Below, piece by piece: positions 25,098 to 54,800 of a DNA stretch of 64,000 nt. Every line of letters starts with the position of its first letter. The stretch's first letter is position 1. A program made the position numbers and the translations under genes. The notes under the pieces were generated by a model. That model saw only the letters and a program-made list of their open reading frames with translations. It did not search any database and had not been told where the DNA came from. Location: IMG/VR virus record IMGVR_UViG_3300006339_000005, positions 1 through 64,000 of that record; one strand, 5' to 3'. This stretch comes from a virus.

Positions 25098-28000
25098 ATG
25101 GCTGAATTTAAACTAGGTAGAATAAGATTTATATGGAAAGGTGCTTGGGTTACAAGTACCGAATATTTCCGTGATGATATAATTCGCTACGGCGGACGAA
25201 CATATATCTGTATTTCAGGGCATACATCAGCGGTATTATTTGTAACAGACGAAGACACTAAATGGCAGAAATTTTCCGACGGTTCAGAATGGCAAAGCGA
25301 CTGGAATTCAGGCGCTGTTTACAAAGTTAATGACATTGTAAAATACGGCGGATATCTATATATTTGTAACACAGGACATACATCAGAAACTCCGGGTGGT
25401 AAATTAGAAACAGACCAAGCAAAATGGGATCTATTTTCTGAAGGGTTTGACTGGAAAGATATTTGGGAAACTAGTACACATTATAAAGTTAATGACATTG
25501 TAAAATATGGCGGAACACTTTACCTATGTACAGTCCCACATACATCTTCAGGAACATTTCAATCTGATGAAGATGGATTAGAAGCAGACAGTGACAAATG
25601 GGATATTTTTGCACAAGGTCAAGATTGGAAAACTGATTGGGTTCAAGCAACAAGATATAAAAAACACGACGAAGTAAAATACGGTGGACAACTTTATATT
25701 TGTAATGAAGGACACATTTCCGGATCAACAGTAGAAGGTTTAGAAGCAGACCAAACTAAATGGGACTACTTACATAAAGGTATAGAATATAAATCAGTTC
25801 ACGCAGGAACAACAAGATATAAAGTTAATGATGTTGTTAAGTCAGGCGGCGGACTATGGATTTGTAATAATTACCACACATCAACAACAACGTTAGCCGC
25901 AGATGTAACAGTATCAGGTAGCGTAGCAACTATTGGTACTATTAGTGGTCCTGATGCAACACGTACTGCTGGAACTTATAATGACGTAAAAGGTACAACA
26001 AGTGGTTCAGGTGATGTAGCAAACACAAGATTTAATATTGTTATTGATGGCGCAGGCGCGGCAACATCAGTTACAGTCGTTCACGGAGGTACTGGCCACG
26101 TAGCAACAGACGTAATTTCAATTCCTAATACACAAATTGGTGGATCGGGTGCAACACTTACATTTAACGTTGCATCAATTGAAAATACTACACAATGGTA
26201 TGAATTTGTTGCAGGTTTAGAATTTGAAGACAGTTGGTCAGGTGCAACAAGTTACCAACCAGGTGACTTTGTAACTTACGGTGGTTACTCTTACATTTCA
26301 AAAACAAATAATACTAACATTCTTCCGTTTGGTAACGCAGGCGACTGGGATTTATTTACAACTGGATTTAACTTACAAGGTGATTACAATAACGGTACTG
26401 CTTATAAAGTAGGTGATGTTATTAGACTTGGTGGTTACACATATCTTGCTAAAGCAAATACAACAGGTAATAGACCACCTAACTTAACTTATTGGGAAAG
26501 ATTAAACCAAGGTATTGAATGGAAAGATGCCTGGGCAGATGCAACACTTTATGATGCCGGCGATGCTGTACGAGGTATAGGAAATGTTAACTCTTATATT
26601 TGTATACTAGCACACACATCAGATGAAATTAGTGTACAAAATAGACCAGACCAAGACGTAGCAGGAACTTACTGGCAATTATTAAGTGGTGGTGTTGAAT
26701 CAGGAAACTTAACTACTGTTGGTGATTTAGTTTACTACGGTGGGTCAGGTCCTGTTAGACTACCAATTGGTACTCCTGGACAAGTATTAAAAGTTAATGC
26801 GGCTGGCGATGCTCCTGAATGGGCATACTTTGGATCAGTTGATGGTGTTTACTATGTGTCTCCAAATGGAACAGATGGTGTTGCACCAGTAGACGGAATT
26901 ACACTTGATAAACCTTGGAGATCAGTTAGATATGCATTAAATGAAATTAGAAAAGGGCCTAGAAATCCAGACGGTGCAAATTTATTAAAACGTAATAAAG
27001 CATTCTTAATGGAAGAAGCTGGTATACAATATGTTGCTTGGAAAATAGCAAATAACTCAGCACCTTTCAGTACAGGTTATACACATGACGCGGCAAAATG
27101 TAGTCGTGATATGGGAATTATTATTGATGGTTTTCTTTACGACATTGGTCATGGTGACAATCGACGTAGTGTAGCAAATGCTTTATCATTCTTTTCACTT
27201 GCTGGAGCAAGTTATATTGAAGGACAAGCATTACAAAACGTTGATGTAATTAATTACATGGTATCAGTTATTGATACTACACTTAGAAATTTAGCACCAG
27301 CAACAAATTATCAAACAACAAATGGTATTGCAGGTGGATCACAAGTTATACAAAAAATTGATGCAACAAAGAATGTTGAAGCAGGTGTTTATGCACGTAT
27401 TCAAGAATTAGCGGCAATAATTACTGATGCAATCTCGGCGGGTAGTATTTCTACTATACCACCAGAAGCATTTGCATACAATACATTATTTGTAAAAACA
27501 GGAATATACAAAGAAACATTACCAATGATTGTTCCAGAAGGAACAGCAGTTATTGGTGACGAATTACGTTCAACGGAAATTAATGCATTAGGTTCAGAAG
27601 ATTCTGTAACTACTCTTGAGCATACAACATTAACACTTAATGGATTGTTACATATTAAATCTATTATTGATAACATTTGTGTTAACGGTGCAATTACAAA
27701 AACTCCGGCAGGTGCCCACTTAACAATGGATTCATTTAGTGGCGCAGATGCTTTAAGAACAGCAGGAACATATACAGGTGTAACAGGTACAAGTTCTGGA
27801 ACAGGTACTGTAGGAACATTTGATATTGTTGTTGATGGTTCAGGTGCAGTTACAAGTATTACAGTTATTACAGCTGGGCACGGACACGTAATTAATAATA
27901 CAATTACAATTGATGATGCTAACTTAGGTGGTGGCGCCGCGGCAAACTTTACAATGGATGTTGCAACAATTGCCGCAGGTAATACACTTACACAAGATGT

Positions 28001-31000
28001 AGCATTACCGGCAGGTACTGCAACGGCAGGTACACGAGCACAAGAATTATTCCAAGACATTCATGATAAAATTAATAATGAAGTATTTGGTGTAGGTACA
28101 GCGCCAGAAACAACAGGTAAAACTGGAAGAGATTCAACACAAGGTTATGTTGATGCAAGATTAAGAATTTTTGAGAATTTAGATTTTATTGCTGAAGAAG
28201 TTGTAGCATACTTACAAACAACTTATACTAGCAAATATGATTTTACTAAAGATGCAAAATGCAAAAGTGATATGAAAGCATATCTAGATGCAGTTATACA
28301 TGACTTAGAAAATTATGGAAATTATAAATCAATTTTATACGGACGATGGTCTTCAAATGCTGTTAAAGGTTCGAAGCACGAAGATATGTATTATTGCCAA
28401 AATGCAACTGGCGTAAGAAATCAAACAGTTCAAGGACTAAAAGGTACATTTTATAGAGCAAGTGCTACAACGGCAATTCAACACGGTAAAGAAGAAGGTG
28501 ATATAATTGAACTTAGAGATATTAATGTTAATTGTTCATTAGCAAATAAAATATATCCGCTAGTTAATTCACTTCATACTCCAACAGCGGCAACATATTC
28601 ACCGTCGACGGGACTAATGGAATTAACTATTGGTCAGCACGGTTATAGAGCTAATCAATATGTTAGTATTGCTACAGATAGTTTAACTTTTAGTTGTACA
28701 TTCGATAATAATGCAACAAATCATACATATCCAAGAGCAACAGGATCATCCCATCCAGGTGGCGCCGATCCTGCTTACAATACACCAGTTGAAATTACAA
28801 CTGTCGGCGGAACAACAATTACTGTAGATGTTGGTACAGGAAGTGCTGATTCTCATAGTGTATCAGCCGCAACATATACACCTGCAACAGGAGTAATGGA
28901 ACTAACTATTGGGTCACATACTTTAGTAACTGGTAATTATGTTGATCTTGTTACAGATAGCTTAACTTTTACTTGTGCTTTAGATAGTCATGCAACAAAT
29001 CATACATATCCAAGAGCAACAGGTTCATCTGCTTCTTATAGTGTATCAGCGGCAACATATACACCAGCAACGGGAGTAATGGAACTAACTATTGGCTCAC
29101 ATCAATATGAAACTGGCAAATTTGTTAATATTGCTATGGATAGTTTAACGTTTACTTGTGCTTTAGATAGTCATGCAACAAATCATACATATCCAAGAGC
29201 AAGTGGATCATCTGCTCCAGGTGGATATGATTATGCTTATAATACACCAGTAGAAATTACAAGTAAAACAGCAACAACAATTACAATAAATGTTGGTATA
29301 TCAAGTAATACGTCAGCACATACATTTGTAAGTGCTACTGCTGATTGTATAACAAATCCAGGATCTGTAGTTGATACTCCAACAGCGGCAACATATGATG
29401 CGGCAACTGGTTTAATGACATTAACTATTGGATCACATGGTTATAAAGTTGGTCATTATGTTAATATTGCTACAGATAGTTTAACGTTTACTTGTACATT
29501 CGATAATAATGCAACAAATCATACATATCCAAGAGCAAGTGGATCATCCTATGCAGGTGGCGCCGACCCAGCTTACAATATATCAGTGCCAATTACGGCA
29601 GTAGGAGCAACAACGATTACAATGAATGTTGGTACAGGAAGTGCTGACACTCATAGTGTATCAGCGGCAACATATACACCAACAACGGGAGTAATGGAAC
29701 TAACTATTGGCTCACATACTTTAGTAACTGGTAATTATGTTGATCTTGCTACAGATAGCTTAACATTTACTTGTACATTCGATAATAATGCAACAAATCA
29801 TACATATCCAAGAGCAAGTGGATCAGCGGCTTCTTATAGTGTATCAGCCGCAACATATACACCTGCAACAGGAGTAATGGAACTAACTATTGGATCACAT
29901 CAATATGAAACTGGCAAATTTATTAAGATTGCTACAGATAGCTTAACATTTACTTGTGCTTTAGATAGTCATGCAACAAATCATACATATCCAAGAGCAA
30001 CAGGTTCATCTGCTCCAGGCGGAGCTGACTATGCCTACGATACACCAGTAGAAATTACTGGAGTAACAGCAACAACAATTACAATGAATGTTGGTATATC
30101 AAGTGATACGTCAGTACATACATTTGTAAGTGCTACTGCTGATTGTATAACAAATCCAGGCGGAGCAGACTATGTACACAATACACCAATTGCAATTACT
30201 GGAGTAACAGCAACAACAATTACAATGAATGTCGGTACAGGAAACATTACCTCTTATACTCCATCAGCGGCAACATATACACCAGCAACGGGAGTAATGG
30301 AACTAACTATTGGGTCACATACTTTAGTGGCTGGTAATTATGTTGATCTTGCTACAGATAGCTTAACATTTACTTGTGCTTTAGATAGTCATGCAACAAA
30401 TCATACATATCCAAGAGCATCAGGAAGTGCCGCACCAGGTGGTGCTGACTATGCCTACGCTACACCAGTAGAAATTACTGGAGTAACAGCAACAACAATT
30501 ACAATGAACGTAGGTGTATCAAGTGATACGTCAGCACATACATTTGTAAGTGCTACTGCTGATTGTGTAACGAATTCAACGGCACATACATTTGTAAGTG
30601 CTACTGCTGATTGTGTAGCAAATTCAACGGCACATACATTTGTAAGTGCAACCGCTGGTGCGATCACAGGCGGAGGTGACTATGTACACAATACACCAAT
30701 TGCAATTACTGGAGTAACAGCAACAACAATTACAATGAACGTAGGTGTATCAAGTGATCTATCGGCACATACATTTGTAAGTGCTACTGCTGATTGTGTA
30801 ACAAATTCAATGGCACATACATTTATAAGTGCTACTGCTGATTGTATATCAAGTGAAGAAACAACATTTAAGATGTTGGCATCTAATGCAACAGCAACAA
30901 CATTTGATGTAGATCTTGGAACAAGTACAATTGCTCAAACTTATGTTAAGGGTGGCGTAGCTATTCCTCAAACAGGAACACAAGAAGGTAATAGACTTGA

Positions 31001-34000
31001 TATTCGAAACTTCGATTATGACACAGGAACTGGTATTGCTACAATTACAACAATGGGCGGTGCTACTGTTCAAGCTATAAACCATGGTAAAAGTTATGGT
31101 GATTTAATTGAGATAGATAGTGTACTAATGAGTTGTGCTCAAGGTAATAAAACGTATCCAGTAAATACTTTTTCAACAGCACATTCAACTGCTCAACAAT
31201 TTACAGTTTTAGCTTCAGGCTTAACTGCAACGGAATTTGAAATTGATATTGGAACAAGTACAACTGCAACAACTTATGTTAGTGGTGGTACAGTTGTTAA
31301 AACTGGTAATGTTAGATTAACAATTACAGGTTTTGCTTATGACATAGGAACTGGTATTGCTACAGTTACTACAGGAACTCACAGTTTATCAGCAAGTGAT
31401 AATGTACAAATACGCGGCGTTGTTATGACGTGTGCTCACGGAACTAAAGTATACCCAGCAATACCTCATGCAGGAATTTATCCAGTAACAAGCGTACCTG
31501 ATGATGATACATTAGACTTTTTCCTACCACCTAGTGCTATTGCACATACTTACGTTAGTGGTGGAACAGTAAAATCAGTAACGATATCTAATGTTGGTAG
31601 TTCAACAGGAATTACAAATTTAGTTTATGTTAACGACACAGGACTTGCTACTGTTACTTCAGCAACACATGGACTAGCTGTAGGTGATAGAGTTAAAATA
31701 TCAAGCGTTACACTTTCTTGTTCAACTGGAAATAAAGTATATCCAGATGCAAATGTATCTTCAGGTGTATTTTATGTTTATGATGTACCTGATGGTAACA
31801 CATTTATTTTTGGTATGGATAGAAGTGATGTCGCACTTACTTACGTTAGTGGTGGGTCAGCACAAAAAGTTACACCGAATTTAACTAATACTGTTAATAT
31901 AACTAGTTTTGTATTTGACACACACTCAGGACATGGATTGGTTGCAACTAATCTTGTTAAGTTACGAGGTATAGAAACAACTTGTTCATATGGAAGTAAA
32001 ATTTATCCACAAATGCCGTTCTCAGGAACGTTTCCGATTACTAGAAAAGTTAGTGATACAGAATTTAACTTCTTCTTACCAGATAGTAATATCGACCACA
32101 CTTATGTTAGTGGTGGTACAGTTAAAACAGTTACAGTTACTAATGTAGGTAATTCAACAAACATTACAGCATTTGATTATAACAACACAACTGGATACAC
32201 AACTGTTGACTCTACGGCTCACGGATTAGCTGTAAATGATTATGTAAGAATTCAAAGTGTAAAAGTTTCTTGTACACAAGGAGAAAAGGTTTATCCTGAT
32301 GCTCATTCAAGTTCAGCAATCTTTGTAGTTTACGATGTTCTTGGTCCTAATAGATTTGTTTATGCTATGGATAAGAGTACATTTGTTCACACTTATGTTA
32401 GTGGTGGTATTGTACAAAAAATTACATACACAGCAACAGATTCTAAACCTATAAGTGCTTTTAGGTATGAACCAAAAGGACTTGTAAATGAGTACGGAAC
32501 AAAACGTCCAAATTCAGGAGCATTTTTATCCTTAGATCCAAGTTGGGGACCAAATGATAACGAAGCGTTCATTCACTTAAAATCTCCTTACATTCAAAAC
32601 GTTACTACAATAGGTGAAAAATGTGTTGGTTGTAAGATTGATGGTGACTTACACGCAGGCGGACTTGACTCTTTTGTTTGTAATGACTTTACGCAAATTG
32701 TTGACGAAGGTATTTCTATATGGTGTACTAATTTAGGTAGAGTAGAACTTGTTTCGGTCTTTACATACTATGGACACATTGGATACTTTGCAGAAAACGG
32801 TGGAAAAATTCGTGCTACAAACGGAAACAACTCCTATGGAGACTTTGGTTCAGTAGCAGAAGGTATTGACTTAACAGAAGAGGCAATTATAGCATACGTT
32901 GACAATAGATCATATCAAGCAGTTATTGGTAATGTTATCGTTAACAACAATAGTATTATTGCAATTGAATACACTAATTGTGGACGAGATTATGTTTCAG
33001 CAAATACAAGTTATACATTTACAGGAGATGGTTACGGTATAACAGGAGCAACTGCGGTAACTGTTACTGGCGGTGTTTCACAAGTTAGACTACTTGGTAC
33101 TTCAAGTACATTTGGTGGTGCAGATTATATTACAGCTACTAATACAATTCAAGCTGGAACTGATACACAAATTACATTATCAAATACAGATACTGCTATA
33201 AGTTCAGCATACTTAGGAATGGCGATTGTACTTACAAGTGGTAAAGGTGCAGGACAAATTGCATACATTGATACATATGACGCGGCTACAAAAGTTGCTA
33301 CAGTTCTAAAACCAAACGACGATACTGCTGGTTGGAATCATATGACTGGTGCAACGATTGAAACATTATTAGATAATACAACAACATATAGTATTGAACC
33401 AAGAGTAACAATTACTGCTCCTAGCGGTGACGGATCAACAGCTACAGGTACTGCAAAAGGTAGAGCAAAAGTTGTAGATGGAAAAATAATTGAAGTTAGA
33501 CTTTATGATCCAGGTGCAAGTTATATTACTAAACCTACAGTAACATTTACTGATCCTAACAATACAGCAGAAGCATTATACGAAGTTTATCTTGGTGATG
33601 GTGCATTAACACAACCTACATTTACTGATCCAGGGACAGGATGGACAAGTGTAAGTGCTACTGTACTTGACGTAGGAGTAACTAAAAATATTACAGGTGT
33701 AACATATACAGCTAACCCATTTGCAGTATCATTACTTGAAGGAAATAAAGAATATATTAAAGACGAAGTTACTGCTTGGATTGATAATCAAATTGCAGGC
33801 GGTACTAATCCAAGTCTATGGCTTAACTTTGTACATGATAAAGTTAAATGTGAAAGAGATATTGGATTCTTAATTGATGCATTCGTTCACGATTTAAAAT
33901 ACGGAAGTAACAGAGATACAGTTACAGCCGCTCGAAGATATTGGATTGGATCTACCTTTGTTGGTGGTGAAACAACTCAAATAATTGCGGCATATGAACA

Positions 34001-35216
34001 AATGAGAATTATTATTTTAGATTATATCTTAGATAATACTTTATATGCTTCGTTACAAACTGTAACAACACAAATTACATATGGTAACAACGGTGAAGCA
34101 GGAGCTCAAACTAGATGTGCTGAATTAATTTCTATTATTACACACGTTGTTGCACACGGACTAGCAGTAATACCAGAAAGTGGCGGCGAAGGTTATGTAG
34201 ATATTACTGTTACAGGACATAATATTTTAAGTCAAACAAAAGTTAAAGTTGATGGTATTGTAGGAACACATCAATTAAATAACAATACTTTCTATGTTAA
34301 TGTTGTTGACGTTGATACTTTAAGATTATATATTGACGAAAACTTATTACATCCAGCAGTCGGAGATAACTTCACTACATATATTTCAGATGGTACAATT
34401 GTTCACGGTGCTGGTTATAGAGATGAAAAACAAAACGGAAAATATTTACAAGTTGAATCAATGTTAGCAATTCCTCAATCAGGAGCAAACATTGAATTTG
34501 CTACTGTACCAAATACGTGGTTTAAACTAGTTTCGGTTACAAACTTAACAGGAAGTAACCCTTATTCTGCACTATTACAATTGAGTCCAGATTTAACTAT
34601 TCCACAAGCACCACTACATGGTGAAAAGGTAACAATTAGAATTAGATACAGTCAAGTTCGACTAACAGGACACGACTTCTTACACGTTGGTACTGGTAAC
34701 TTTGTTAGCACAAACTATCCAGGACAACCTGCTGTATTAACAGATCAACTTGACGAAGCTGTTGATAGTGGTGGCGGGCGTGTATTCCTAACATCAACGG
34801 ATCAATCTGGTAACTTTAGAGTTGGTGATTTATTTACGGTTGAACAAGCTACAGGTATAGCAACCCTAAATGCAGATGCATTTAGTATTTCAGGATTACA
34901 AGAATTACAATTAGGTAGTGTTGAACTTGGTACTGCTGGTGCTACTATTAATGAGTTTAGTACAGATGGCACATTTACAGCAAATAGTGATCAAATTGTT
35001 CCTACGCAACGTGCAATTAAGACATTTATTACGTCCCAAATTGGTGGCGGTGCATCGGAATTGAACGTAAATAGTGTAACAGCAGGTATTATTAATATTC
35101 AAGGCAACACAATCACTACAACGACGGGTGCTAGAATAAATACAACTGCAACAATGCATTTCTCAGCTGGAGTAAGTGGAGCCCCTGTAGCGATGCAACA
35201 GTTTTTACTGAGTTAA
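25098..35216 (+). CDS. Giant modular tail fibre/appendage protein (3372 aa)
   Basis: Same scaffold as the 1752-aa gene (MAEF...RIR..WK..W; YSQVRLTGHDFL.VGTG; STDQ.GNFRVG.LF.V.Q.TG) plus about 1600 aa of inserted repeat modules; preceded by GATAAATA 25063-25070. Confidence 0.9.
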   Translation: MAEFKLGRIRFIWKGAWVTSTEYFRDDIIRYGGRTYICISGHTSAVLFVTDEDTKWQKFSDGSEWQSDWNSGAVYKVNDIVKYGGYLYICNTGHTSETPGGKLETDQAKWDLFSEGFDWKDIWETSTHYKVNDIVKYGGTLYLCTVPHTSSGTFQSDEDGLEADSDKWDIFAQGQDWKTDWVQATRYKKHDEVKYGGQLYICNEGHISGSTVEGLEADQTKWDYLHKGIEYKSVHAGTTRYKVNDVVKSGGGLWICNNYHTSTTTLAADVTVSGSVATIGTISGPDATRTAGTYNDVKGTTSGSGDVANTRFNIVIDGAGAATSVTVVHGGTGHVATDVISIPNTQIGGSGATLTFNVASIENTTQWYEFVAGLEFEDSWSGATSYQPGDFVTYGGYSYISKTNNTNILPFGNAGDWDLFTTGFNLQGDYNNGTAYKVGDVIRLGGYTYLAKANTTGNRPPNLTYWERLNQGIEWKDAWADATLYDAGDAVRGIGNVNSYICILAHTSDEISVQNRPDQDVAGTYWQLLSGGVESGNLTTVGDLVYYGGSGPVRLPIGTPGQVLKVNAAGDAPEWAYFGSVDGVYYVSPNGTDGVAPVDGITLDKPWRSVRYALNEIRKGPRNPDGANLLKRNKAFLMEEAGIQYVAWKIANNSAPFSTGYTHDAAKCSRDMGIIIDGFLYDIGHGDNRRSVANALSFFSLAGASYIEGQALQNVDVINYMVSVIDTTLRNLAPATNYQTTNGIAGGSQVIQKIDATKNVEAGVYARIQELAAIITDAISAGSISTIPPEAFAYNTLFVKTGIYKETLPMIVPEGTAVIGDELRSTEINALGSEDSVTTLEHTTLTLNGLLHIKSIIDNICVNGAITKTPAGAHLTMDSFSGADALRTAGTYTGVTGTSSGTGTVGTFDIVVDGSGAVTSITVITAGHGHVINNTITIDDANLGGGAAANFTMDVATIAAGNTLTQDVALPAGTATAGTRAQELFQDIHDKINNEVFGVGTAPETTGKTGRDSTQGYVDARLRIFENLDFIAEEVVAYLQTTYTSKYDFTKDAKCKSDMKAYLDAVIHDLENYGNYKSILYGRWSSNAVKGSKHEDMYYCQNATGVRNQTVQGLKGTFYRASATTAIQHGKEEGDIIELRDINVNCSLANKIYPLVNSLHTPTAATYSPSTGLMELTIGQHGYRANQYVSIATDSLTFSCTFDNNATNHTYPRATGSSHPGGADPAYNTPVEITTVGGTTITVDVGTGSADSHSVSAATYTPATGVMELTIGSHTLVTGNYVDLVTDSLTFTCALDSHATNHTYPRATGSSASYSVSAATYTPATGVMELTIGSHQYETGKFVNIAMDSLTFTCALDSHATNHTYPRASGSSAPGGYDYAYNTPVEITSKTATTITINVGISSNTSAHTFVSATADCITNPGSVVDTPTAATYDAATGLMTLTIGSHGYKVGHYVNIATDSLTFTCTFDNNATNHTYPRASGSSYAGGADPAYNISVPITAVGATTITMNVGTGSADTHSVSAATYTPTTGVMELTIGSHTLVTGNYVDLATDSLTFTCTFDNNATNHTYPRASGSAASYSVSAATYTPATGVMELTIGSHQYETGKFIKIATDSLTFTCALDSHATNHTYPRATGSSAPGGADYAYDTPVEITGVTATTITMNVGISSDTSVHTFVSATADCITNPGGADYVHNTPIAITGVTATTITMNVGTGNITSYTPSAATYTPATGVMELTIGSHTLVAGNYVDLATDSLTFTCALDSHATNHTYPRASGSAAPGGADYAYATPVEITGVTATTITMNVGVSSDTSAHTFVSATADCVTNSTAHTFVSATADCVANSTAHTFVSATAGAITGGGDYVHNTPIAITGVTATTITMNVGVSSDLSAHTFVSATADCVTNSMAHTFISATADCISSEETTFKMLASNATATTFDVDLGTSTIAQTYVKGGVAIPQTGTQEGNRLDIRNFDYDTGTGIATITTMGGATVQAINHGKSYGDLIEIDSVLMSCAQGNKTYPVNTFSTAHSTAQQFTVLASGLTATEFEIDIGTSTTATTYVSGGTVVKTGNVRLTITGFAYDIGTGIATVTTGTHSLSASDNVQIRGVVMTCAHGTKVYPAIPHAGIYPVTSVPDDDTLDFFLPPSAIAHTYVSGGTVKSVTISNVGSSTGITNLVYVNDTGLATVTSATHGLAVGDRVKISSVTLSCSTGNKVYPDANVSSGVFYVYDVPDGNTFIFGMDRSDVALTYVSGGSAQKVTPNLTNTVNITSFVFDTHSGHGLVATNLVKLRGIETTCSYGSKIYPQMPFSGTFPITRKVSDTEFNFFLPDSNIDHTYVSGGTVKTVTVTNVGNSTNITAFDYNNTTGYTTVDSTAHGLAVNDYVRIQSVKVSCTQGEKVYPDAHSSSAIFVVYDVLGPNRFVYAMDKSTFVHTYVSGGIVQKITYTATDSKPISAFRYEPKGLVNEYGTKRPNSGAFLSLDPSWGPNDNEAFIHLKSPYIQNVTTIGEKCVGCKIDGDLHAGGLDSFVCNDFTQIVDEGISIWCTNLGRVELVSVFTYYGHIGYFAENGGKIRATNGNNSYGDFGSVAEGIDLTEEAIIAYVDNRSYQAVIGNVIVNNNSIIAIEYTNCGRDYVSANTSYTFTGDGYGITGATAVTVTGGVSQVRLLGTSSTFGGADYITATNTIQAGTDTQITLSNTDTAISSAYLGMAIVLTSGKGAGQIAYIDTYDAATKVATVLKPNDDTAGWNHMTGATIETLLDNTTTYSIEPRVTITAPSGDGSTATGTAKGRAKVVDGKIIEVRLYDPGASYITKPTVTFTDPNNTAEALYEVYLGDGALTQPTFTDPGTGWTSVSATVLDVGVTKNITGVTYTANPFAVSLLEGNKEYIKDEVTAWIDNQIAGGTNPSLWLNFVHDKVKCERDIGFLIDAFVHDLKYGSNRDTVTAARRYWIGSTFVGGETTQIIAAYEQMRIIILDYILDNTLYASLQTVTTQITYGNNGEAGAQTRCAELISIITHVVAHGLAVIPESGGEGYVDITVTGHNILSQTKVKVDGIVGTHQLNNNTFYVNVVDVDTLRLYIDENLLHPAVGDNFTTYISDGTIVHGAGYRDEKQNGKYLQVESMLAIPQSGANIEFATVPNTWFKLVSVTNLTGSNPYSALLQLSPDLTIPQAPLHGEKVTIRIRYSQVRLTGHDFLHVGTGNFVSTNYPGQPAVLTDQLDEAVDSGGGRVFLTSTDQSGNFRVGDLFTVEQATGIATLNADAFSISGLQELQLGSVELGTAGATINEFSTDGTFTANSDQIVPTQRAIKTFITSQIGGGASELNVNSVTAGIINIQGNTITTTTGARINTTATMHFSAGVSGAPVAMQQFLLS
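28572..30854 (+). repeat. Seven nested copies of the ~105-aa 'YTPATG-TFTC-YPRA-HTFVSATADC' module
   Basis: Near-identical DNA copies, for example a 420-bp register between 29881 and 30301. Confidence 0.9.
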
Positions 35217-35935: not shown

Positions 35936-36682
35936 ATGTCAGACTTGAGATCGTTAATGTCAGATATTATAGGAGGTGGTGGAACACCCACTAAAATCTT
36001 CTATGTCTACAATAACAATAGAGGTATGAGCAACGGTGGTTGTTGTTGCTACTGGACTGTTCCGGTTGGTATTAAAAACGCTACGTTTGAAGTATGGGGC
36101 GGCGGCGGTGCTGGCAGTGGAGCGTGTTGTTGCCAATGGGGTCAAGATGGAGCTGGAACAGGTGCGTATGCAATTACACACGTTACATCTTCAACACTAG
36201 AAGGTAATACATATACAATTTGTGCGGCAGGTAACGGAAGTTGTTGTCAAGCTCATTGTTTAGGATATACAGGTTACAAAAGTTATGTTACAGGCTCAAG
36301 CATTCCGGCTACTTGTGCGAATGGTGGTTGCGGTGGAACAACTATGTGTCACGCTCACCATGCCTACAATTGCTGTTATGGATGGAATTGTATAGAAACA
36401 GGAACTGCAGGTACTTTTAAATTGGGTATAGGACGTGATCATACAATGAACACGCAATATTGTCACAATCAAATGTGGGACCAAGTTGGTGGTGGAGTTA
36501 AGTCAAGTATGAGTAGAAAAGGACGAGATCTTTGCCACGGTCCAATGGTTTGTTCAGGATGTGGTTGGGGTTGTTCAGATGACTATCCATCAGGCGGAAG
36601 TTTTAATGCAACTGTTTGTGGAAATCCATGTTGCTGGGGACAATGGTCCTCAGGAGGAATGGTCAAAATTAGCTATAGTTAA
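35936..36682 (+). CDS. Cys/Gly-rich fibre-tip protein 1 (248 aa, 24 Cys)
   Basis: CCC.W.VP...FEVWGGGG.G.G.CCC glycine-rich domain. Confidence 0.75.
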   Translation: MSDLRSLMSDIIGGGGTPTKIFYVYNNNRGMSNGGCCCYWTVPVGIKNATFEVWGGGGAGSGACCCQWGQDGAGTGAYAITHVTSSTLEGNTYTICAAGNGSCCQAHCLGYTGYKSYVTGSSIPATCANGGCGGTTMCHAHHAYNCCYGWNCIETGTAGTFKLGIGRDHTMNTQYCHNQMWDQVGGGVKSSMSRKGRDLCHGPMVCSGCGWGCSDDYPSGGSFNATVCGNPCCWGQWSSGGMVKISYS

Positions 36683-36729
36683 ATTATGGACCTAATAAAG
36701 AAGGATAAATATTAAAAAGGAAAAGACTT

Positions 36730-37455: not shown

Positions 37456-37469
37456 GGAGAATATAATTA

Positions 37470-38240: not shown

Positions 38241-38250
38241 GGGATAAACT

Positions 38251-39051: not shown

Positions 39052-39059
39052 GATAAACA

Positions 39060-45885: not shown

Positions 45886-48800
45886 ATGGCAAAAACAAAA
45901 GTAGAACAGTATATATTTCAACCAGGTATTCCGGTTAATGAAAATCGCTATGGTATGGCGCATGATTTAATTAAGAATAACGTTGAATTTATCTGCGACG
46001 AAGTAACGGCTTGGATTGCTGAACAAGTTAAGATGGAGCCTGTCTATCCAGATGCTGTCACATCCATTACAGCAAATAAAGAATTTTTAAAAGATGAAGT
46101 AATGGCTTGGTTTGATATAGCCTATCCAGGAGCTCACGATCTAACTTATAGTGTAACAAATGCAATATACACACCAGCAACAGGAGTAATGGTATTAACT
46201 ATCGGCTCACACGGTTTCTTAGTTGGTAATACTATTAGAATTGCCACAGATAGCTTAACATTTACTTGTGCTTTAGATAGTCATGCAACAAATCATACAT
46301 ATCCAAGAGCAACCGGATCAGCCGCACCTGGTGGTTACGATTTTGTTTATAATAAACCAATTGCAGTTACAGAATTTTCTTCAACAACAATTACTGTAAA
46401 TATCGGTATATCAAGTGATGTATCAGCACACTCATACGTAACTTCTACTGCTGATTGTATAGCAAGTAACGAACGTCATGAAAAATGTGCTCGAGACACA
46501 GGATTTAATATTGATGCCATTACAACAGATTTATATAGTGGTGGTAACTTTGAAACTAGAAGAATAGCACAAAAATATTGGGAAGGTACTAATACAAACC
46601 TTGGTAGTGGCTCTGAACAAACGTATGCTACTTTAGTTAATGATAAATTAAAAGAAATAATTAACGGTTATATTTTATCAAATACAGCTTGGACAACTGC
46701 ACAAGACCCGGTAGTTACTACACAAAACGTTAGTAATCCAGTTGGTGAATCTAATTCGACTAATAGAGTAACAGAGTTACATAAGATTCTTAATGATGTT
46801 ACTGTAAACGGAATAGGGGCACTTCCAGAGGTAACACCTTCTTGGTCACATTATACTTACGATGGAGAATTATGCGAAAGAGATACACGTCTTAATTTAC
46901 AAGGTGATGATGGAACTGGCGGAATACTTTATGATTTAAGATATGGCGGTAACGAAAAAACACGTTATACTGCTAGTAAATATTGGATTAATGCAACACC
47001 ACAAGTTGATGGTGACAGAACCACTGAAAGATTTGCTAAAAATTATGTCCGTGATTTAATTAATAATTTTATTTTACCACAACCGACAACGGCACAAGTA
47101 TATCCTTATGCTATAGCATTACTTGAAGCAAATAAACAATATATAGCAGACGAGGCTACAGAATGGTTTGATGCAAACTATCCAGGAGTTCATACCGGTA
47201 CACGTCATGCAAAATGTATAAGAGATACAATATTTAATATTGAAGCACTTACATCAGATATCTATACTGGTAGTAATTTTCAAACTATTGAAATGGTTCA
47301 CAGATACTGGAGTGGAACTGCATCACAACTTCCAGGTGGTGAAACAGTTCTTACAACGGCAACCGCTCACGGTAGATCTGTAGATGATGTAGTTGAAATA
47401 CGAGGTCTAGTATTAGGTTGTCCTATGGGTTCTAAAACGTATCCAGTATCTGACTTTACGCAAGGACATTCAGCTAATCAATCATTTGCAGTCAGATCAC
47501 AAAACTTAACTGCTTCAACATTTGAAATTTTCCTTGGAACAAGTGCAATTGCTCAAACTTATGTTAAGGGCGGTACAGTTATTCCTCAAGCAGGATTACA
47601 ACAAGATAATAGACTAGATATTCGAAACTTCGATTATGATACAGGATCAGGGGTTGCTACAATTACAACTATGGGTGGTGCTACTATTACAGCGGAAGCA
47701 CATGGTAAAAGTAAAGGTGACTTAATTGCAGTAGATGGTGCTGTATTAAGTTGTGATATGGGTTCTAAAACATATCCAGTAAATAGTTTTTCAACAGCAC
47801 ATTCAACTGCTCAACAATTTACAGTTAGAGCAACTAATTTAACTGCAAACACGTTTGAAGTTTTCTTTGGAACAAGTGCAATTGCAACAACTTATGTTAG
47901 TGGTGGTACAATTGTTAAAGATAATAATGTTAGACAAGCAATTACAGATTTTGCTTATGACATAGGACCAAGTCATAGTGTAACGGCGGCAACATATACA
48001 CCTGCAACAGGAGAAATGCAGTTAACTATTGGAGCACACAATTTCGAAATTGGTCATTATGTTAAGATTGCTACAAATAGTTTAACTTTTACTTGTGCTT
48101 TAGATGGTCATGCAACAAATCATAGCTATCCAAGAGCAACTGGATCAGCGGCTCCAGGTGGCTACGATTATTTCTACAATAAACCAGTAGAAATTATAGG
48201 GGCAGGTGCAACAACAATTACAATGAACGTAGGTGTATCAAGTGATGTATCGGAACATACATTTGTAAGTGCTACTGCTGATTGTATATCACCAGTACCG
48301 GCGGCTAATAGTGTAACAAATGCAGTATACACACCAGCAACGGGAGTAATGGTATTAACTATTGGGGCACACGATTTACAACTTGGTAATCAAATTAGAA
48401 TTGCTACAGGGAGTCTAAAATTCACTTGTGAAATGGACAGTCATGCTACAACTACAGCATACCCAAGAGCATCAGGAAGTGCCGCACCAGGTGGATATGA
48501 TTATGCTTATAATACGGCAGTTACAATTACGGCAATAGATTCAACAACAATTACTTGTAATGTTGGTACATCAACTAATACATCAATACATACATTTGTA
48601 AGTGCTACTCCTAACTGTATAGCAAATGATATAGGATCAGCAGGTAAGTGTACTATTACTACTTCAGGCAGTCATAATTTATCAATAAATGATACTATAG
48701 ACATACGTGGTGTTATTATGGATTGTGAATTTGGAACTAAAGTATATCCAGCAATTCCTCATGCAGGAATTTTTCCGGTAACAAAAGTTACTGACACTAA

Positions 48801-51800
48801 TACATTAGATTTTTACTTACCACCTAGTGAAATTGATCATACTTATGTTAGTGGTGGAACAATAAAATCAGCAACGCTAACTAACGTTGGTAGTTCAACA
48901 ATCATTACAGCTTTTGCTTATAATAATGATCAAGCACTTATTACTATTACTTCAGGAAACCACGGACTTGTTGTAGGTGACCTTGTTAAATTAACTGGCA
49001 TTGTACTTTCTTGTTCAACTGGTACTAAAACATATCCAGATACAAGTGTATCTTCAGGTGTATATTATGTTTATGATGTACCTGATATTGATACGTTTAT
49101 TTTTGGTATGGATAGAAGTAATGTTGTACATACTTACGTTAGTGGTGGTACTTGTCAGAAAGTTACAACTGCTACAAATAGTACTGTTAATATAAGTAAT
49201 TTTGTATTTGACACACACGCAGGACATGGATTATCAGCAACTGATAATGTAATATTACGTGGTATTGTAACAGATTGTATTTACGGAACTAAAATATATC
49301 CAGCATTAGTACACGCAGGACTTTATCCTATAACCAAAACAGATACTGCTGATACATTTGAATTTTTCTTAAATCCTAGTAATATCGCTCACACTTACAC
49401 TAGTGGTGGTACAGTAAAAGACATAGATGTTACAAACGTTGGTGATGCAGTAGATATTACAAATTTTATTTACGACAATGACCTAGCAACATTTACTGTT
49501 ACTACTTCAGGAATTGATAATCCTTATAATGTGGCAGGAGCAACATACATACCTACAACAGGAGTAATGGAATTAACTATTGGAACACATGATTTAGAAG
49601 TTGGTAACAAAGTTAATATTGAAGCAACAAGTCTAACTTTTACTTGTGCCTTTGATAATAATGTTAGCCAACATAGCTATCCAAGAGCAACCGGATCAGC
49701 CGCACCTGGTGGTTACGATTATTTCTACAATAAACCAGTAGAAATTACGGCAATCAGTGCAGATACAATAACAATGAACATTGGTACCGGTAATATTAAA
49801 ACTTATACTCCAACAGCGGTAACATACATACCTACAACAGGAGTAATGGAATTAACTATTGGAACACATACTTTAGTAACTGGTAATTATGTTGACATTG
49901 ACGCAGGATGTTTAAATTTCACTTGTACTTTTGATAATAATGCTACTCAATCTAGCTATCCAAGAGCAACTGGGTCAGCGGCTCCAGGTGGTGCAGATTA
50001 TTTTTATGATACACCATGTAGAATTGACTCCACTTCAGCAACAACAATTACATTGAATGTTGGTGCTGGTAATGTTAAAACTTATAATGTATCAGCGGCA
50101 ACATATACACCAACAACAGGAGTGATGCAATTAACTATTGGATCACATAGTTTAGTAGCTGGTAATTATATTGATATTGCGGCAAATAGTATAGTGTTTA
50201 CTTGTGCCTTAGATGGTCACGCAACAACTACAGGATATCCAAGAGCAACAGGAAGTGCCGCACCAGGTGGTGCTGACTATGCCTACAATACACCAGTAGT
50301 AATTGCATCAGTAGGTGCAACAACTATTACAATAAATGTTGGTGTATCAAGTAATACATCAACACATACATACGTAAGTTCTACTGCTAACTGTATATCA
50401 AATTCAAATTCACATACATTTACAAGTGCTACTGCTAATTGTATAAAAAATGCAGAAGCACATACATTTGTAAGTGCTACTGCTGATTGTGTATCAAAAG
50501 CAGGACACGGACTAACTGTAGGTGATAAAGTTAAATTAGCTGGTATTGGTATGTCTTGTGAATTTGGTAGTAAAATATATCCTGAAAATAATGCAGGATA
50601 TTTTGTAGTTTATGATGTGCCTGATGTTAGTACATTTATTCTTGGTACAGATAAGAGTGCCGTTGTCCATACTTGGACAGGTGGTGGTACTTGGCAAAAA
50701 ATTACATATACTGTTCTTAATCAAACCGACGTAGCTGATTTTGCCTTTGGTCCAAGTGAAAGAACTTATGCAGTTGCAGTTAACCAGAAAACAGAATCAA
50801 TAATTAAAGATTACATTTTTACTAATACTACATATCCGTCAGTACAATCAGGTAGTACACAAACTATTACTGCCAACGCCGCAGAATCAGGAGCATCTGG
50901 TAGAATAACAACATTGATGGATGCTATTAATAATGTTACTGTAAATGGATTAGACTATCTACCAACGGCGGGATATGCCTCGGTAGGATATACACCTTTA
51001 CAAACAGCAACTTCACAATATTTTAATTCATCTAGTGTTTCAGAAAGTGCCGCTAGTGCAGTTATTACAGATAGATTTGGTATTATTACTGATGTAATCG
51101 AAAACGGACTTGATAATGTTCCTGCACTTGATAGAGCACAAGTTAGTTCTATTAGATTACAAACTCGTGTACCAACAAATGACTTATTACTCATTACAGA
51201 TACAACTGTTAATGAAGTATTGTTTAACTTTACTGACTCTGAAAAAGGTGCTAGTTGTCAATTTATAACAGACGATCAGGAAAAATTAACAAAAGGTGTT
51301 GATGATGATTTTCCAAAATTCTTAGAAAGAACTGGAACAATCACAACTATTTACTTAGATGTAAATACAGATTCACCTACATACAGTCCTAATGCTCGTG
51401 TTCAATTAGAAGCAAATAAAGAATTTTTACAAAAAGAAACTGTAGCTTGGATTGGTAATAAAATCTCAACTGCTATTACATATCCTTATGCTAAAACATT
51501 AATTGATGCAAATAAAGAATGGTTAGCAGATGAAGTAATGGCTTGGTTTGACTTAACATATCCAAATGCTCACAGTACTATACAACATGAAAAATGTGAA
51601 AGAGATACAAAATTTAATATTGATGCACTTGCTTATGATATCTATCATGGTAGTAATACTCAAACTAGAGAAACTGCAAAAAAATATTGGGAAGGTACTA
51701 ATTCATTATTAGCTAATTCCGGCGGAGCATTTACTGAAACTACTAATGCTGAAATTGGTTATGCACTTGCTGTTAATAATAAATTAAGAGATTTAATTAT

Positions 51801-54800
51801 TAATAATGTATTAACAAATACTGTATATGTAACACACCAATCACCTATTATAACAGTACAAATAACAAATAACAATGATGGTGAAACAAAAACTGTATCT
51901 AGAGTAACAGACTTAATGGGAATCATTACAAGCGTTATACAAAGTGGAATTTCAGCATTACCAAATTCTATTCCAGCATGGACTGATTATACATATAATG
52001 GTCCAAAATGTGAAAGAGATGTCGGTTTCCAACTTGATGCTCTTATTCATGATATTAAGTATGGCGGTAATGCTGAAACTTATAGGAATGCTAAAAAGTA
52101 TTGGATCCAATCAACACCACAAATTGATGGTGATCGTTCACATGAAACATTTGCTAAAGATCATGTAAGATTTTTAATTAATGATTATGTATTTAAAAAT
52201 GTAACTTATCCTACATTACAAGTAGGGGCACAAGCAGTTAGTCAAGTTACAGTTTATACAGCGGCTGAAGCCGGTGTTGATGATAGAGTTAGTGACCTCT
52301 TTGCAATTATTAATAATGTTATTACAAATGGCACTAGTTCGTTGCCTGTTAAAGACGAACCTAAGATATTTTCTGACACTGACGATATTCAAATCTTTAT
52401 TGACCAAGGTGATTTAAAAGTTAGACCATATGACTTTGGTACTGATGCTATTGAACGTATGCGTGTCGCAACTGCTCAGTCAATGCTTGACGCTGACTTT
52501 GAGTATGGCCTACAGCCTACGAAGTGGCAAGCGATTGCTACACAAAGAGGTTATCCATCAATTTACGAAGTACCAGGTACTGATAAACAGGTTTCAACTG
52601 TTCAAACAGACGCTTCAACAGGAACCGGTGGAATTGGTCAATCATTAATTACTGTTACTACAATTGGTGCTCATAGTATTGAACCAGGGTCACCTATTAC
52701 ACTTAAAGCATTAGAAAATTCTGTAGCAGGGGCGGCAAGAGCTGAAGGTTCGTTTATTGTTTCAACAGTACCTACTATTAATACATTTACATATTTTGCA
52801 AAATCAAAAGTTGGTACAGCTAACGGACAAATACTTTCAACATTTTATACGCAATTACGACAAGCAGGATTTTATACAGGTTCATCAATTGGTAATCCAA
52901 CGTTTTCTATCATATCACAAGGTTCCGCAGGAGTATTATATAATCCATTAGGTTCATTAAGTGGAGCTGATAAAATAACTTGGTTAGGCGAACAACCAGA
53001 AGTTGGTGCTCCGATGTTAATTGAAGATGGTATGGCGACAGCACTTTATACATATTCAGGGGCAGACGTTTTAAGAACAGCAGGAGTTTATACTAATATT
53101 CTTGGTACAACAAGTAGCGTAGTAGGAGACGTAATTGCTCCAACAGTTAATATTACAGTTGACGGCAGTGGCGCCGCACTTGCAACTATTGTAACTGGTG
53201 GACGACGTAATGCAGTTGACGATACTATTACAGTTTTAGATTCACTATTAGGTGGTGGCGGAGCCGCAGACTTAACATTTAACATTCAAGCAGTTGTAGA
53301 TGGTGCAACTCAAATACCATCAGGTGCCCAAGTTACATCCATACTAGGTAGTGGTGGAGCCATTCAAACTATTCAAACAACGGCAGATGTTCCTATCGGT
53401 TCTAATTCAATTCCAGTTGTTAACACAGCTGGTGTTTTAGCAGGACACGGAATAGATAGAGGTGATGGTACAGCAGTATTTGTAAGTAGCGTTATTGGAA
53501 ATAATATTAACATAGATGGAAACACTACAAACACACTTGTTGGTAACGTTGTAACATATACTGGCGTAGGAGGAGTAAATTACTCATCCTTAGGATATGG
53601 TTCAACATTTGATATTAGTAGAACCGGTGGCGTTTATACTGTCGTAATAAACGAAGACGGTGATCAATATGAAACTGGCGATGTTATTATAGCTTTAGGT
53701 AATTCCTTAGGTGGTACTACTCCTGAACATGATTGTAGAATTGAAATTACTGAAGCAGATACTAGTGGAGATATAGTTACAATTCTTTCATCAGGTGCGG
53801 CATTTGACGGTAGTGCTAATTACAATGCTATAGTAGGAACAAATTCCAATGGTGTTGGTACCGGATCATTATTTGATATTTCATATACTAATAATACTTA
53901 CAGCGTTAGTTTAGCACAACCATCATATATTAATTTAACAGGAACAAACTTAGGTGGTATTGGTCTTGGTGCTAGTGTTGATATTACAATGACAAACAAT
54001 GCTTATTCAGTTGCAATTAATAATGCAGAAGATAATAGTTTAGACTATGTTGTTAGCGATAGAATTAGAATTAACGGAACACAATTAGGTGGTACAACAC
54101 CAGTTAATGATGCTGAAGTTGTAGTTACATCAGTTGACGTAAGTACAGGCGAAATAACAGGAGTAAGCGTTACTGGTACAGCCGTAGATGCAGATGTAAC
54201 TTATATAAATGTAACATATACTACAGGATCAATTGGTGGTGTTACTGCAAACATTAATATTAGAAGAGTAGGTACTACTTATGAAGTTAATATTATTGGC
54301 GGTGGTTCAGGTTATACAGCTTCTGAAACATTAAACATTGTAGGTACAGAGTTGGGTGGAGCGGCACCGACTAACAATGCATCAGTAACAATTCAAACAG
54401 TTGACGGAAGTGGTTCAATTTTAACAGCCACTATTGGAGGAGTAGCCGTTAATGTACAAGAACATACAAATATTCAAAGCGGCCTTAACCAATTAGGAAC
54501 TGCCGCTCTATTAACTGTTACTGTAAATTATAATAATAGCTACAATGTTGTTATAGGAAATACTGGTGGTTTTAATTACGGTGTTGGTCAAAAAATACAA
54601 CTATTAGGAACAGTATTTGGTAATGGTGCAACTCCAGTTAATGATATTACTGTTACAATTAGTGCGGTAACCGTTACTGGAGAAATAACAAACCTTAGTC
54701 ATACTGGTACATCCGCAGATGCAACAAAAAATTATGTACTTGGTGATAGATTAGAAGTTATTGGATCATTTCTAGGCGGTCTTGATGAAACTAATGATGC

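What the first reader, a model, noticed from the sequence alone, without database searches (positions are those of the whole stretch)
28572..30854. Recursively nested protein modules that parse as a branched tree inside one fibre gene
The ~105-aa module has three parts: OPEN (AATYTPATG.MELTIG.H...DSLTFTC..D...TNHTYPRA.GS), MID (PGG.D..YNTPVEIT..TTIT.NVG) and CLOSE (S.AHTFVSATADC). In the 3372-aa ORF the order is O1 M1 [O2 [O3 M3 C3] [O4 M4 [O5 [O6 M6 C6] M5 [O7 M7 C7] C5] C4] M2 C2] C1: seven of each part, perfectly balanced like parentheses. The pile of orphan-looking CLOSE segments at about 30535-30845 is the unwinding of the nest. Copies are inserted only at two loops (GS|PGG and VGTG|S), so the chain should fold as a branched, dendritic array rather than as beads on a string. 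The parse is read directly from the sequence; the branched 3D shape is inference. I do not know of a described phage fibre built this way.
Basis: partly seen in the sequence, partly recalled or inferred. Interest (0 to 1): 0.92.

Follow-up and report, generated by a model that had tools for sequence, protein, structure and literature searches.

The report
Self-nested barrel domains, cyanophage fibre
A 3,372-residue tail-fibre-type protein of a marine cyanophage-like virus carries seven copies of one small beta-barrel domain inserted into each other's loops like Russian dolls, a design solved so far for the cyanobacterial RNA polymerase Si3 arm and not found described for phage fibres in the papers searched.

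Summary
In ORF 25098..35216 the OPEN/MID/CLOSE pieces run O M O O M C O M O O M C M O M C C C M C C (aa 1160-1918). The whole nest also sits in a loop of an eighth, more distant barrel, giving six levels.

The module is an about 100-residue beta-barrel. It has no Pfam family and structurally resembles the E1 FCCH barrel and the inserted barrel of phage phi92 endosialidase.

AlphaFold2 folds two natural two-module nests confidently, one for each loop used here (pLDDT 94.6 and 94.3, pTM 0.82 and 0.73). The split outer copy shows the same strand pattern as the contiguous inner one. The seven-module nest itself was not modelled, and no coordinates were available.

The architecture is family-wide: 445 of 1,259 modules in 188 related giant proteins are split, up to eight rounds deep. 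An 87%-identical orthologue has three modules at the same site.

Recursive self-insertion is already known from cyanobacterial RNA polymerase Si3, so this is a new variant of a known kind. This scan has noted the same nested barrel in six other cyanophage genomes.

The parts
25098..35216 (+). Giant tail-fibre-type ORF (3372 aa) that holds the nest. The N-terminal region carries CBM_5_12-like repeats.
   Evidence: ORF list. Pfam CBM_5_12 at 120 bits, 6 stretches. PHROG tail fibre families 9851, 5342 and 17885.
28470..28568 (+). Host type-2 barrel, first half (aa 1125-1157, ends '...KIYP'). The nest is inserted just after it.
   Evidence: Type-2 profile hit to positions 19-53. Flank windows scored alone give 24.1 and 27.5 bits; joined they give one 55.6-bit hit.
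28578..28856 (+). Module 1, OPEN+MID (aa 1161-1253)
   Evidence: Excision test round 5, 110 bits together with aa 1902-1917.
28857..29039 (+). Module 2, OPEN (aa 1254-1314)
   Evidence: Excision test round 4, 115 bits together with aa 1419-1426 and 1857-1901.
29040..29351 (+). Module 3, contiguous leaf (aa 1315-1418)
   Evidence: Round 1 full-length hit, 124 bits.
29376..29654 (+). Module 4, OPEN+MID (aa 1427-1519)
   Evidence: Round 3, 111 bits together with aa 1841-1856.
29655..29837 (+). Module 5, OPEN (aa 1520-1580)
   Evidence: Round 2, 107 bits together with aa 1685-1720 and 1825-1840.
29838..30149 (+). Module 6, contiguous leaf (aa 1581-1684)
   Evidence: Round 1, 126 bits.
30150..30257 (+). 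Module 5, MID (aa 1685-1720)
   Evidence: The MID subtype 'DYVHNTPIAI' is shared only with module 2.
30258..30569 (+). Module 7, contiguous leaf (aa 1721-1824)
   Evidence: Round 1, 127 bits.
30570..30665 (+). CLOSE strands of modules 5 and 4 (aa 1825-1840 and 1841-1856), with no linker between them
30666..30800 (+). Module 2, MID+CLOSE (aa 1857-1901)
30801..30848 (+). Module 1, CLOSE (aa 1902-1917)
30861..30956 (+). Host type-2 barrel, second half (aa 1922-1953)
   Evidence: Right flank window scored alone gives 27.5 bits to profile positions 58-88.
30993..32414 (+). Five type-2 barrels in plain tandem (aa 1966-2439), the beads-on-a-string part that follows the nest
   Evidence: Type-2 profile hits of 59-95 bits. 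Weak Pfam E1_FCCH match at 28.9 bits against a cut-off of 29.5.
49447..50694 (+). Second nest in the window, in the 4175-aa ORF 45886..58413. A type-2 host split at another loop (aa 1188-1214 + 1537-1603) holds O M [O M [OMC] C] C.
   Evidence: Token scan. Excision test rounds 1-4. AlphaFold2 model of its inner two levels.

Best explanation
**What it is.** The stretch encodes a tree of eight small beta-barrel domains made by recursive domain insertion. One type-2 barrel of the fibre's bead array carries module 1 in a surface loop. Module 1 carries module 2. Module 2 carries modules 3 and 4 side by side. Module 4 carries module 5. Module 5 carries modules 6 and 7 in two different loops.

**How it folds (inferred).**
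- Each child enters through a 3-6 residue linker and returns through 0-2 residues. Its two ends must therefore lie side by side, as in other inserted barrels of this fold.
- The three contiguous leaves can fold first.
- Their closed ends then bring the parent's pieces together.
- The run of CLOSE strands completes the open barrels in last-in-first-out order.
- The product is a branched side arm on the fibre, not a linear string.

**How it evolves.**
- The tree grows and shrinks by gain and loss of whole modules or sub-trees at a few permissive loops.
- Close relatives therefore differ in tree size while every barrel stays complete.

**Function.** Function is inferred only. The arm most likely multiplies and projects putative ligand-binding barrels near the host surface.
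For: **Shown in this gene**
- Exact balanced order of the pieces, with a chance probability of 1e-5.
- The automatic excision test rebuilds every split module at 107-115 bits, against 124-127 bits for contiguous ones.
- The host barrel re-forms when the nest is removed, at 55.6 bits here and 58.0 bits in the orthologue.

**Subtypes co-vary across the gaps**
- Modules 1 and 4, 2 and 5, and 3 and 6 are each other's nearest copies in OPEN and again in MID (O2-O5 ties with O2-O7 at 91%, and M6 is nearer M7 at 91%).
- This holds although O2 and M2 lie about 545 residues apart.

**Orthologue P0017**
- P0017 is 84-86% identical in the first 1,340 residues.
- It has O M [O [OMC] M C] C at the same residue, so the two differ by four whole modules.

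**Structure prediction**
- Two natural simple nests, one per loop, fold at pLDDT 94.6 and 94.3 with pTM 0.82 and 0.73.
- The strand patterns of the split and contiguous copies are identical.
- FNR-type barrels align to the inner copy, for example 8qq7_A on residues 60-171.
- They also align to a range that only the split outer copy can fill: 8qq5_A on residues 1-218, 82 aligned, Z 5.6 (likewise).

**Fold**
- Best matches are the E1 FCCH barrel (4p22_B, Z 8.3, rmsd 2.5, 77 aligned) and the phi92 endosialidase barrel (4hiz_A residues 256-338, Z 8.2).
- Both are themselves inserted domains, from established knowledge.

**Family-wide**
- 445 of 1,259 modules in 188 proteins are split.
- Split modules appear in up to eight excision rounds.
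- A segment-order-shuffled control gives 145-151.
- Junctions cluster at four positions of the module.
- Six of the seven possible three-module trees occur.

**Not an assembly accident**
- The exact protein lies on three JGI contigs.
- A variant with nine differing residues and the same order lies on an ENA contig of 237 kb.
- The copies are only 76-93% identical in DNA.
Against: - The seven-module nest itself was not modelled.
- One of those nests is from another ORF of the window and the other is from the orthologue.
- No coordinates or contact maps were returned, so OPEN-CLOSE pairing is inferred from confidence, strand pattern and alignment ranges.
- Monomer prediction cannot exclude exchange of pieces between chains of an oligomeric fibre.
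- The shuffled control in the family test is not near zero (about 148 against 445). About 860 partial hits stay unresolved, most likely because two profiles do not cover the family's diversity.
- Two relatives, P0081 and P0011, appear unbalanced.
- Function and folding order have no direct evidence.
Confidence: 0.85

Rival explanations
1. The pieces do complete barrels, but by exchange between chains of an oligomeric (for example trimeric) fibre, or by pairing with the nearest neighbour. The result would be an intertwined linear shaft rather than a monomeric branched tree.
For: - Many phage fibres are intertwined trimers (established knowledge).
- Only monomer predictions were run, and no contact map was available.
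Against: - A swapped shaft has no need for the strict last-in-first-out order found here and in relatives.
- It also has no need for return linkers of 0-2 residues.
- The monomeric nests fold at pLDDT above 94.
- The nearest structural relatives are monomeric inserted barrels.
Confidence: 0.07
2. The orphan-looking pieces are debris. They would be remnants of tandem repeats broken by unequal recombination, tolerated as unfolded linkers, with the balance being accidental or superficial.
For: - The copies recombine. The ENA variant carries an O6-type patch in O2.
- Some relatives look unbalanced.
Against: - The counts are exactly 7/7/7 and the order is tree-like, with P = 1e-5.
- The pieces are as conserved as the contiguous modules and rejoin at 107-115 bits without gaps.
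- The same grammar recurs in 143 of 188 related proteins.
- Split outer modules are predicted with the same confidence as inner ones.
Confidence: 0.04
3. The repeat order is an artefact of assembling short reads across similar repeats.
For: - The sequence is metagenomic.
- The copies are 76-93% identical.
- The only differences between the two full-length versions sit inside a repeat.
- Reads could not be checked.
Against: - The same 3372-aa product appears on three JGI contigs, and the same order on an independent ENA contig.
- No two copies are identical.
- An artefact would not yield a perfectly balanced tree or keep the reading frame.
- Related genes from many samples obey the same grammar.
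Confidence: 0.02

Closest known systems
Si3 insertion of cyanobacterial RNA polymerase beta' (RpoC2): nested sandwich-barrel hybrid motifs
   Same: - Copies of one small beta domain are inserted into loops of other copies.
- Some copies are continuous and others are built from distant stretches of the chain. This was solved by crystallography and cryo-EM (PMC10895346).
- It has been described as eight domains in a six-level recursive insertion with bifurcating nodes (PMC13114784).
- Number of domains, depth and branching are about the same as here.
   Different: - The fold is different: no RNA polymerase chain appears among the 50 rows listed for each model.
- The host protein and its role differ. 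Si3 is a single conserved cellular insertion in the trigger loop.
- Here the module fills hundreds of fast-varying virion proteins, with 35% of 1,259 copies split, four insertion hot spots and differing tree shapes in close relatives.
E1 FCCH domain and the inserted beta-barrel of phage endosialidases (phi92, PDB 4hiz)
   Same: - These are the best structural matches of the module: Z 8.3 and 8.2, rmsd 2.5 and 2.1 over 77 residues.
- Both are themselves domains inserted into a loop of another domain, so their ends are adjacent (established knowledge).
- There is a weak Pfam E1_FCCH match on the type-2 copies.
   Different: - These are single insertions into an unrelated host domain, not self-nesting.
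- Sequence identity is 15-20%.
- The Pfam score lies below the curated cut-off.
- Z values near 8 are in the range the tool calls common, so the shared fold is likely but homology is not shown.
Split domains of RTX adhesins that project ligand-binding domains (AhLap; PMC12077191)
   Same: A bead of a fibrillar surface protein is split by an inserted domain, which is thereby held out sideways from the fibre axis. This is the likeliest functional analogy.
   Different: - There the insertion is one level deep and the inserts are unrelated ligand-binding domains.
- The protein is a bacterial adhesin, not a virion protein.
- No ligand is known here.
Giant 'gp7-like / baseplate wedge / structural' proteins of T4-like cyanophages (for example S-SSM7, P-SSM4, Syn30)
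   Same: - They carry the same module: 330 phage records, all cyanophage or marine.
- Predicted structures of S-SSM7 and related proteins match the nest model, with TM 0.59-0.61.
   Different: - They are annotated only as structural, baseplate or fibre proteins.
- I found no description of the nesting in the papers searched.

Membership tests
Recursive homotypic domain insertion (architecture class exemplified by RNA polymerase Si3) | A domain is interrupted by a complete copy of the same domain type, repeatedly | tested here: met
   Five rounds of excision rebuild modules 5, 4, 2 and 1 from 2-3 pieces each. The type-2 host re-forms around the whole nest.
Recursive homotypic domain insertion (architecture class exemplified by RNA polymerase Si3) | Split copies fold as whole domains | tested here: inconclusive
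   The feature is met in AlphaFold2 models of two natural two-module nests (pLDDT 94.6 and 94.3; alignment ranges). It was not modelled for this seven-module nest, and no coordinates or experimental structure exist.
Si3 / sandwich-barrel hybrid motif family itself | SBHM fold and location in the trigger loop of RNA polymerase beta' | tested here: inconclusive
   No RNA polymerase chain appears among the 50 rows listed for each model. The protein is a virion fibre. It is treated as an analogue, not as a member.
Pfam PF16190 E1_FCCH | Profile score at or above the gathering cut-off (29.5 bits) | tested here: not met
   Type-2 region: 28.9 bits. Whole protein: 15.5 bits. Type-1 leaf module: no Pfam hit at all.
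FCCH-like / EF-Tu domain II-like small beta-barrel fold | Structural superposition over most of the domain | tested here: met
   4p22_B Z 8.3, 9mc4_A Z 8.2, 2v31 Z 6.7, 4hiz_A Z 8.2, with 77-79 of about 105 residues aligned at rmsd 2.1-2.5. This is fold level only, because the Z values lie in the range the tool calls common.
Phage tail fibre proteins (PHROG 9851, 5342, 17885) | Significant profile matches and a position in the structural gene block | tested here: met
   E-values of 9e-180, 1e-109 and 1e-54. Portal and major head genes lie upstream in the window.
Pfam PF02839 CBM_5_12 | Score above the cut-off (26.2 bits) | tested here: met
   120.3 bits in six stretches in the N-terminal region of the protein, outside the nest.

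The most novel reading that the evidence does not exclude
The nested barrels may be a fast-evolving, branched display organ.
- Each barrel would be a small ligand-binding unit whose OPEN and CLOSE pieces are clasped by a metal site. The candidate residues are the invariant Cys of 'TFTC' and His of 'HTF', plus the near-invariant His of 'GSH'.
- Gain, loss and gene conversion of whole sub-trees at four permissive loops would tune the valency and reach of the fibre, and so adsorption and host range.
- That would make tree topology itself a selectable trait of marine cyanophages.
Probability: 0.2. Interest if true: 0.8.

Novelty: new variant of a known kind. Interest (0 to 1): 0.62.

Why it matters
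**Protein architecture**
- It shows that deep recursive self-insertion is not a one-off of RNA polymerase Si3.
- It is a general building mode of a whole family of virion proteins.
- It comes with hundreds of natural variants of tree shape.
- That gives a large natural data set for three questions:
  - which loops tolerate insertion;
  - how discontinuous domains fold;
  - how far nesting can go.

**Phage biology**
- It changes how the giant, unannotated cyanophage 'structural' proteins should be read.
- They are branched arrays rather than long rods.
- Domain finders that expect contiguous domains will miss a third of the copies.

**Host interaction**
- If the barrels bind host-surface ligands, changes in tree size between close relatives would be a new route of host-range evolution.
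- The example here is three against seven modules at 87% identity.

Tried and rejected
**Modelling the finding's own nest**
- MAFFT mis-registers every homologue on the sub-nest aa 1514-1843. It puts the outer OPEN on the inner OPEN, or splits MID between copies.
- I therefore did not fold that sub-nest with a misleading alignment.
- The only other proteins first called as the same O[L]M[L]C topology, P0078 and P0132, turned out to carry the second insert inside the MID hairpin.

**Other structure and sequence searches**
- The model files are not exposed in the script box, so no contacts could be measured.
- Foldseek against the PDB gave nothing at E <= 0.001.
- A sequence search of the PDB gave only chance-level hits.
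- P0092 was too long for a contig look-up.

**Family-wide grammar tests**
- My first test split proteins into token runs. It gave 37 well-formed runs against 0.6 expected, but 450 runs were not well formed.
- That run-splitting and three-token scheme was too crude for a family with four insertion sites, so I replaced it with the excision test.
- The first excision run wrongly accepted type-2 profile hits on OPEN+MID pieces and broke the parse of this gene. It was corrected.

**Reads and complex prediction**

**History of the expansion**
- I could not settle whether one self-insertion of a three-module nest plus a leaf, or several recombinations, produced the expansion relative to the orthologue.
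- Alignment paths through near-identical copies are ambiguous.
Full report
**Setting**

The window is the structural block of a large marine phage.
- It holds a portal gene (5183-6928) and a major head gene (10756-11922).
- It holds a 1752-aa fibre-like ORF and the 3372-aa ORF 25098..35216.
- A row of small paralogous ORFs follows, then a second giant ORF of 4175 aa at 45886..58413.
- G+C content is about 36%.
- The 3372-aa protein matches PHROG tail fibre families and carries CBM_5_12 repeats in its N-terminal region.
- All 330 phage records that contain its repeat module are Synechococcus or Prochlorococcus phages or marine isolates.

- Simple motifs find seven OPEN, seven MID and seven CLOSE pieces between aa 1160 and 1918. 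Their order is O M O O M C O M O O M C M O M C C C M C C. Profile scans agree.
The method finds full-length profile hits, removes them and searches again.
  - Round 1 removes the three contiguous leaves (aa 1315-1418, 1581-1684, 1721-1824; 124-127 bits).
  - Round 2 yields module 5 from three pieces, round 3 module 4 from two, round 4 module 2 from three and round 5 module 1 from two.
  - These rebuilt modules score 107-115 bits.
  - This is exactly O1 M1 [O2 [3] [O4 M4 [O5 [6] M5 [7] C5] C4] M2 C2] C1.
- Only 3,876 of 399 million orders of the 21 pieces form a single tree.
- Insertions use two junctions only, three events each. Entry linkers are 3-6 residues and return linkers 0-2.

**One more level**

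- Downstream of the nest lie five more distant copies of the same domain in plain tandem. I call them type 2. They span aa 1966-2439, and their profile also hits the type-1 modules at 35-52 bits.
- The residues just before the nest (ending '...KIYP') and just after it are the two halves of another type-2 copy.
  - The flanking windows aa 1096-1160 and 1918-1965 score 24 and 27 bits alone.
  - Joined, they score 55.6 bits as one hit.
  - The orthologue gives 58.0 bits.
- The tree therefore has eight barrels and six levels. It hangs from the first bead of a bead array.

**What the module is**

- It has no Pfam family and no sequence relative in the PDB.
- In the AlphaFold2 models it is an eight-strand beta domain.
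- Its best structural matches are the E1 FCCH barrel (4p22_B, Z 8.3, rmsd 2.5, 77 residues) and the barrel of phi92 endosialidase (4hiz_A 256-338, Z 8.2).
- Further matches are a phage FCWL1 head-to-tail protein, N4 tail proteins, FNR and EF-Tu domain II type barrels, and the P22/Sf6 coat I-domain.
- Z values near 8 are in the range the tool calls common, so I claim fold resemblance only.
- Several of these are themselves inserted domains (established knowledge), which fits the need for adjacent ends.
- The type-2 copies give a sub-threshold Pfam E1_FCCH match (28.9 against 29.5 bits).

**Do split copies fold?**

I could not build a correctly registered alignment for the seven-module nest or its three-module sub-nest. 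I therefore tested each insertion loop in a natural two-module nest with a verified alignment.
- M|C loop.
  - The target was window 49792-50451, from the second giant ORF, with topology O M [OMC] C.
  - The outer copy had 11-12 same-topology rows and the inner copy about 118 rows.
  - The model has mean pLDDT 94.6 and pTM 0.82.
- O|M loop.
  - The target was the orthologue's O [OMC] M C (L084:4745-5398).
  - Its pieces are about 88-98% identical to the window's O5/O2, module 6, M5 and C5, so it is in effect the window's sub-nest without module 7.
  - The outer copy had 11 same-topology rows.
  - The model has pLDDT 94.3 and pTM 0.73.
- In both models the split copy shows the same strands as the contiguous copy, at fixed offsets of 93 and 61 residues.
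- The same PDB barrels that align to the inner copy also align, with 62-82 residues, to ranges 1-220 or 1-218. Only the outer split copy can fill those ranges.

**Relatives**

- The closest other protein, P0017, is 84-86% identical over the first 1,340 residues. It has O M [O [OMC] M C] C starting at the same residue and enclosed by the same type-2 host.
- The two orthologues thus differ by four whole modules.
- Within the window's nest, modules 1 and 4, 2 and 5, and 3 and 6 are nearest copies in OPEN and again in MID. O2-O5 ties with O2-O7, and M6 is nearer M7.
- That pattern is what duplication of a whole three-module nest into itself would give, followed by one more leaf. The exact path is ambiguous.
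- Other relatives carry other well-formed trees. Six of the seven possible three-module shapes occur.
- In 188 related proteins of 600 aa or more, the excision test finds 1,259 modules.
  - 445 are split into 2-5 pieces.
  - 143 proteins contain at least one split module.
  - Split modules appear in up to eight rounds.
  - Two controls with shuffled segment order give 145 and 151.
  - Junctions cluster at about 20-31%, 52-59%, 64-75% and 80-87% of the module length.
- The window's second giant ORF uses the first of these sites for its own nest.
- About 860 partial hits remain unresolved, and two relatives look unbalanced. I attribute this to limited profile coverage and possibly collapsed metagenome assemblies, but that is not shown.

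**Artefact check**

- The exact 3372-aa product is on three JGI contigs.
- A variant of the same length and order is on an ENA contig of 237 kb.
- The nine differing residues all lie in aa 1275-1285. There the ENA version carries the hairpin of module 6, a patch that looks like gene conversion between copies.
- The copies are 76-93% identical in DNA.
- Read mapping was not possible.

**Comparison with what is known**

- Recursive insertion of one domain type into itself is solved for the Si3 arm of cyanobacterial RNA polymerase.
  - It has eight sandwich-barrel hybrid motifs, four continuous and four built from distant stretches (PMC10895346).
  - It has been called a six-level recursive insertion with bifurcating nodes (PMC13114784).
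- The present case has another fold and another kind of protein. Unlike Si3, it is a variable, family-wide building mode.
- Split beads that project inserted domains are also known in RTX adhesins (PMC12077191).
- Seven literature searches found no description of this architecture in phage fibres.
- This scan's own notes record the same nested barrel in six other cyanophage genomes. They agree with what I found here independently.

**Verdict**

- The thing is a self-nested beta-barrel tree on a cyanophage fibre: a new variant of a known architectural principle.
- Function, folding order and the three-dimensional shape of the full tree remain inferences.

Noticed in passing
window 45886-58413 (+), nest at 49447-50694: A second giant ORF (4175 aa) has its own nest. 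A type-2 barrel is split at a different loop (between its second and third strands, aa 1188-1214 + 1537-1603). It holds O M [O M [OMC] C] C.
   Followed up: yes
window 28920-28952 (aa 1275-1285 of the fibre): The only nine differences between the window's protein and an independent ENA version are clustered here. They replace the hairpin of OPEN 2 by that of module 6. This looks like gene conversion between copies, or repeat mixing in one assembly.
   Followed up: partly
every module, for example aa 1721-1824 (window 30258-30569): Over about 118 diverse copies the Cys of 'TFTC', the Pro of 'YPR' and the His of 'HTF' are invariant. The His of 'GSH', an Arg and an Asp are nearly so. This may be a metal site that ties the CLOSE strand to the OPEN piece. 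It was not tested.
   Followed up: no
L091:4988-5935 and L092:1040-1987 (relatives P0078, P0132): In these relatives a whole module is inserted inside the MID hairpin. This is a fourth insertion site that the window's fibre does not use.
   Followed up: partly
relatives P0081 and P0011 (metagenome contigs of 13 and 12 kb): Their token orders are O M C C C and O M O M O M C M O M C C, which are not balanced. They may be collapsed repeat assemblies or truly broken nests.
   Followed up: no
window 35936-40547 (+): Five adjacent small ORFs belong to two alternating PHROG families (4205 and 9740, the latter with a weak tail fibre assembly match). They form a tandem paralogue array between the two giant genes.
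   Followed up: no
window 19788-25046 (+): The upstream 1752-aa ORF shares the N-terminal fibre region (PHROG 9851, E = 5e-180) with the 3372-aa fibre but has no type-1 module. The two look like a pair of fibres with a common attachment end.
   Followed up: no
window 42501-44342 (+) and 60878-62140 (-): A Nol-like carbamoyltransferase and a heptose kinase/adenylyltransferase-like gene sit next to the fibre genes. They are sugar-modifying auxiliary genes.
   Followed up: no
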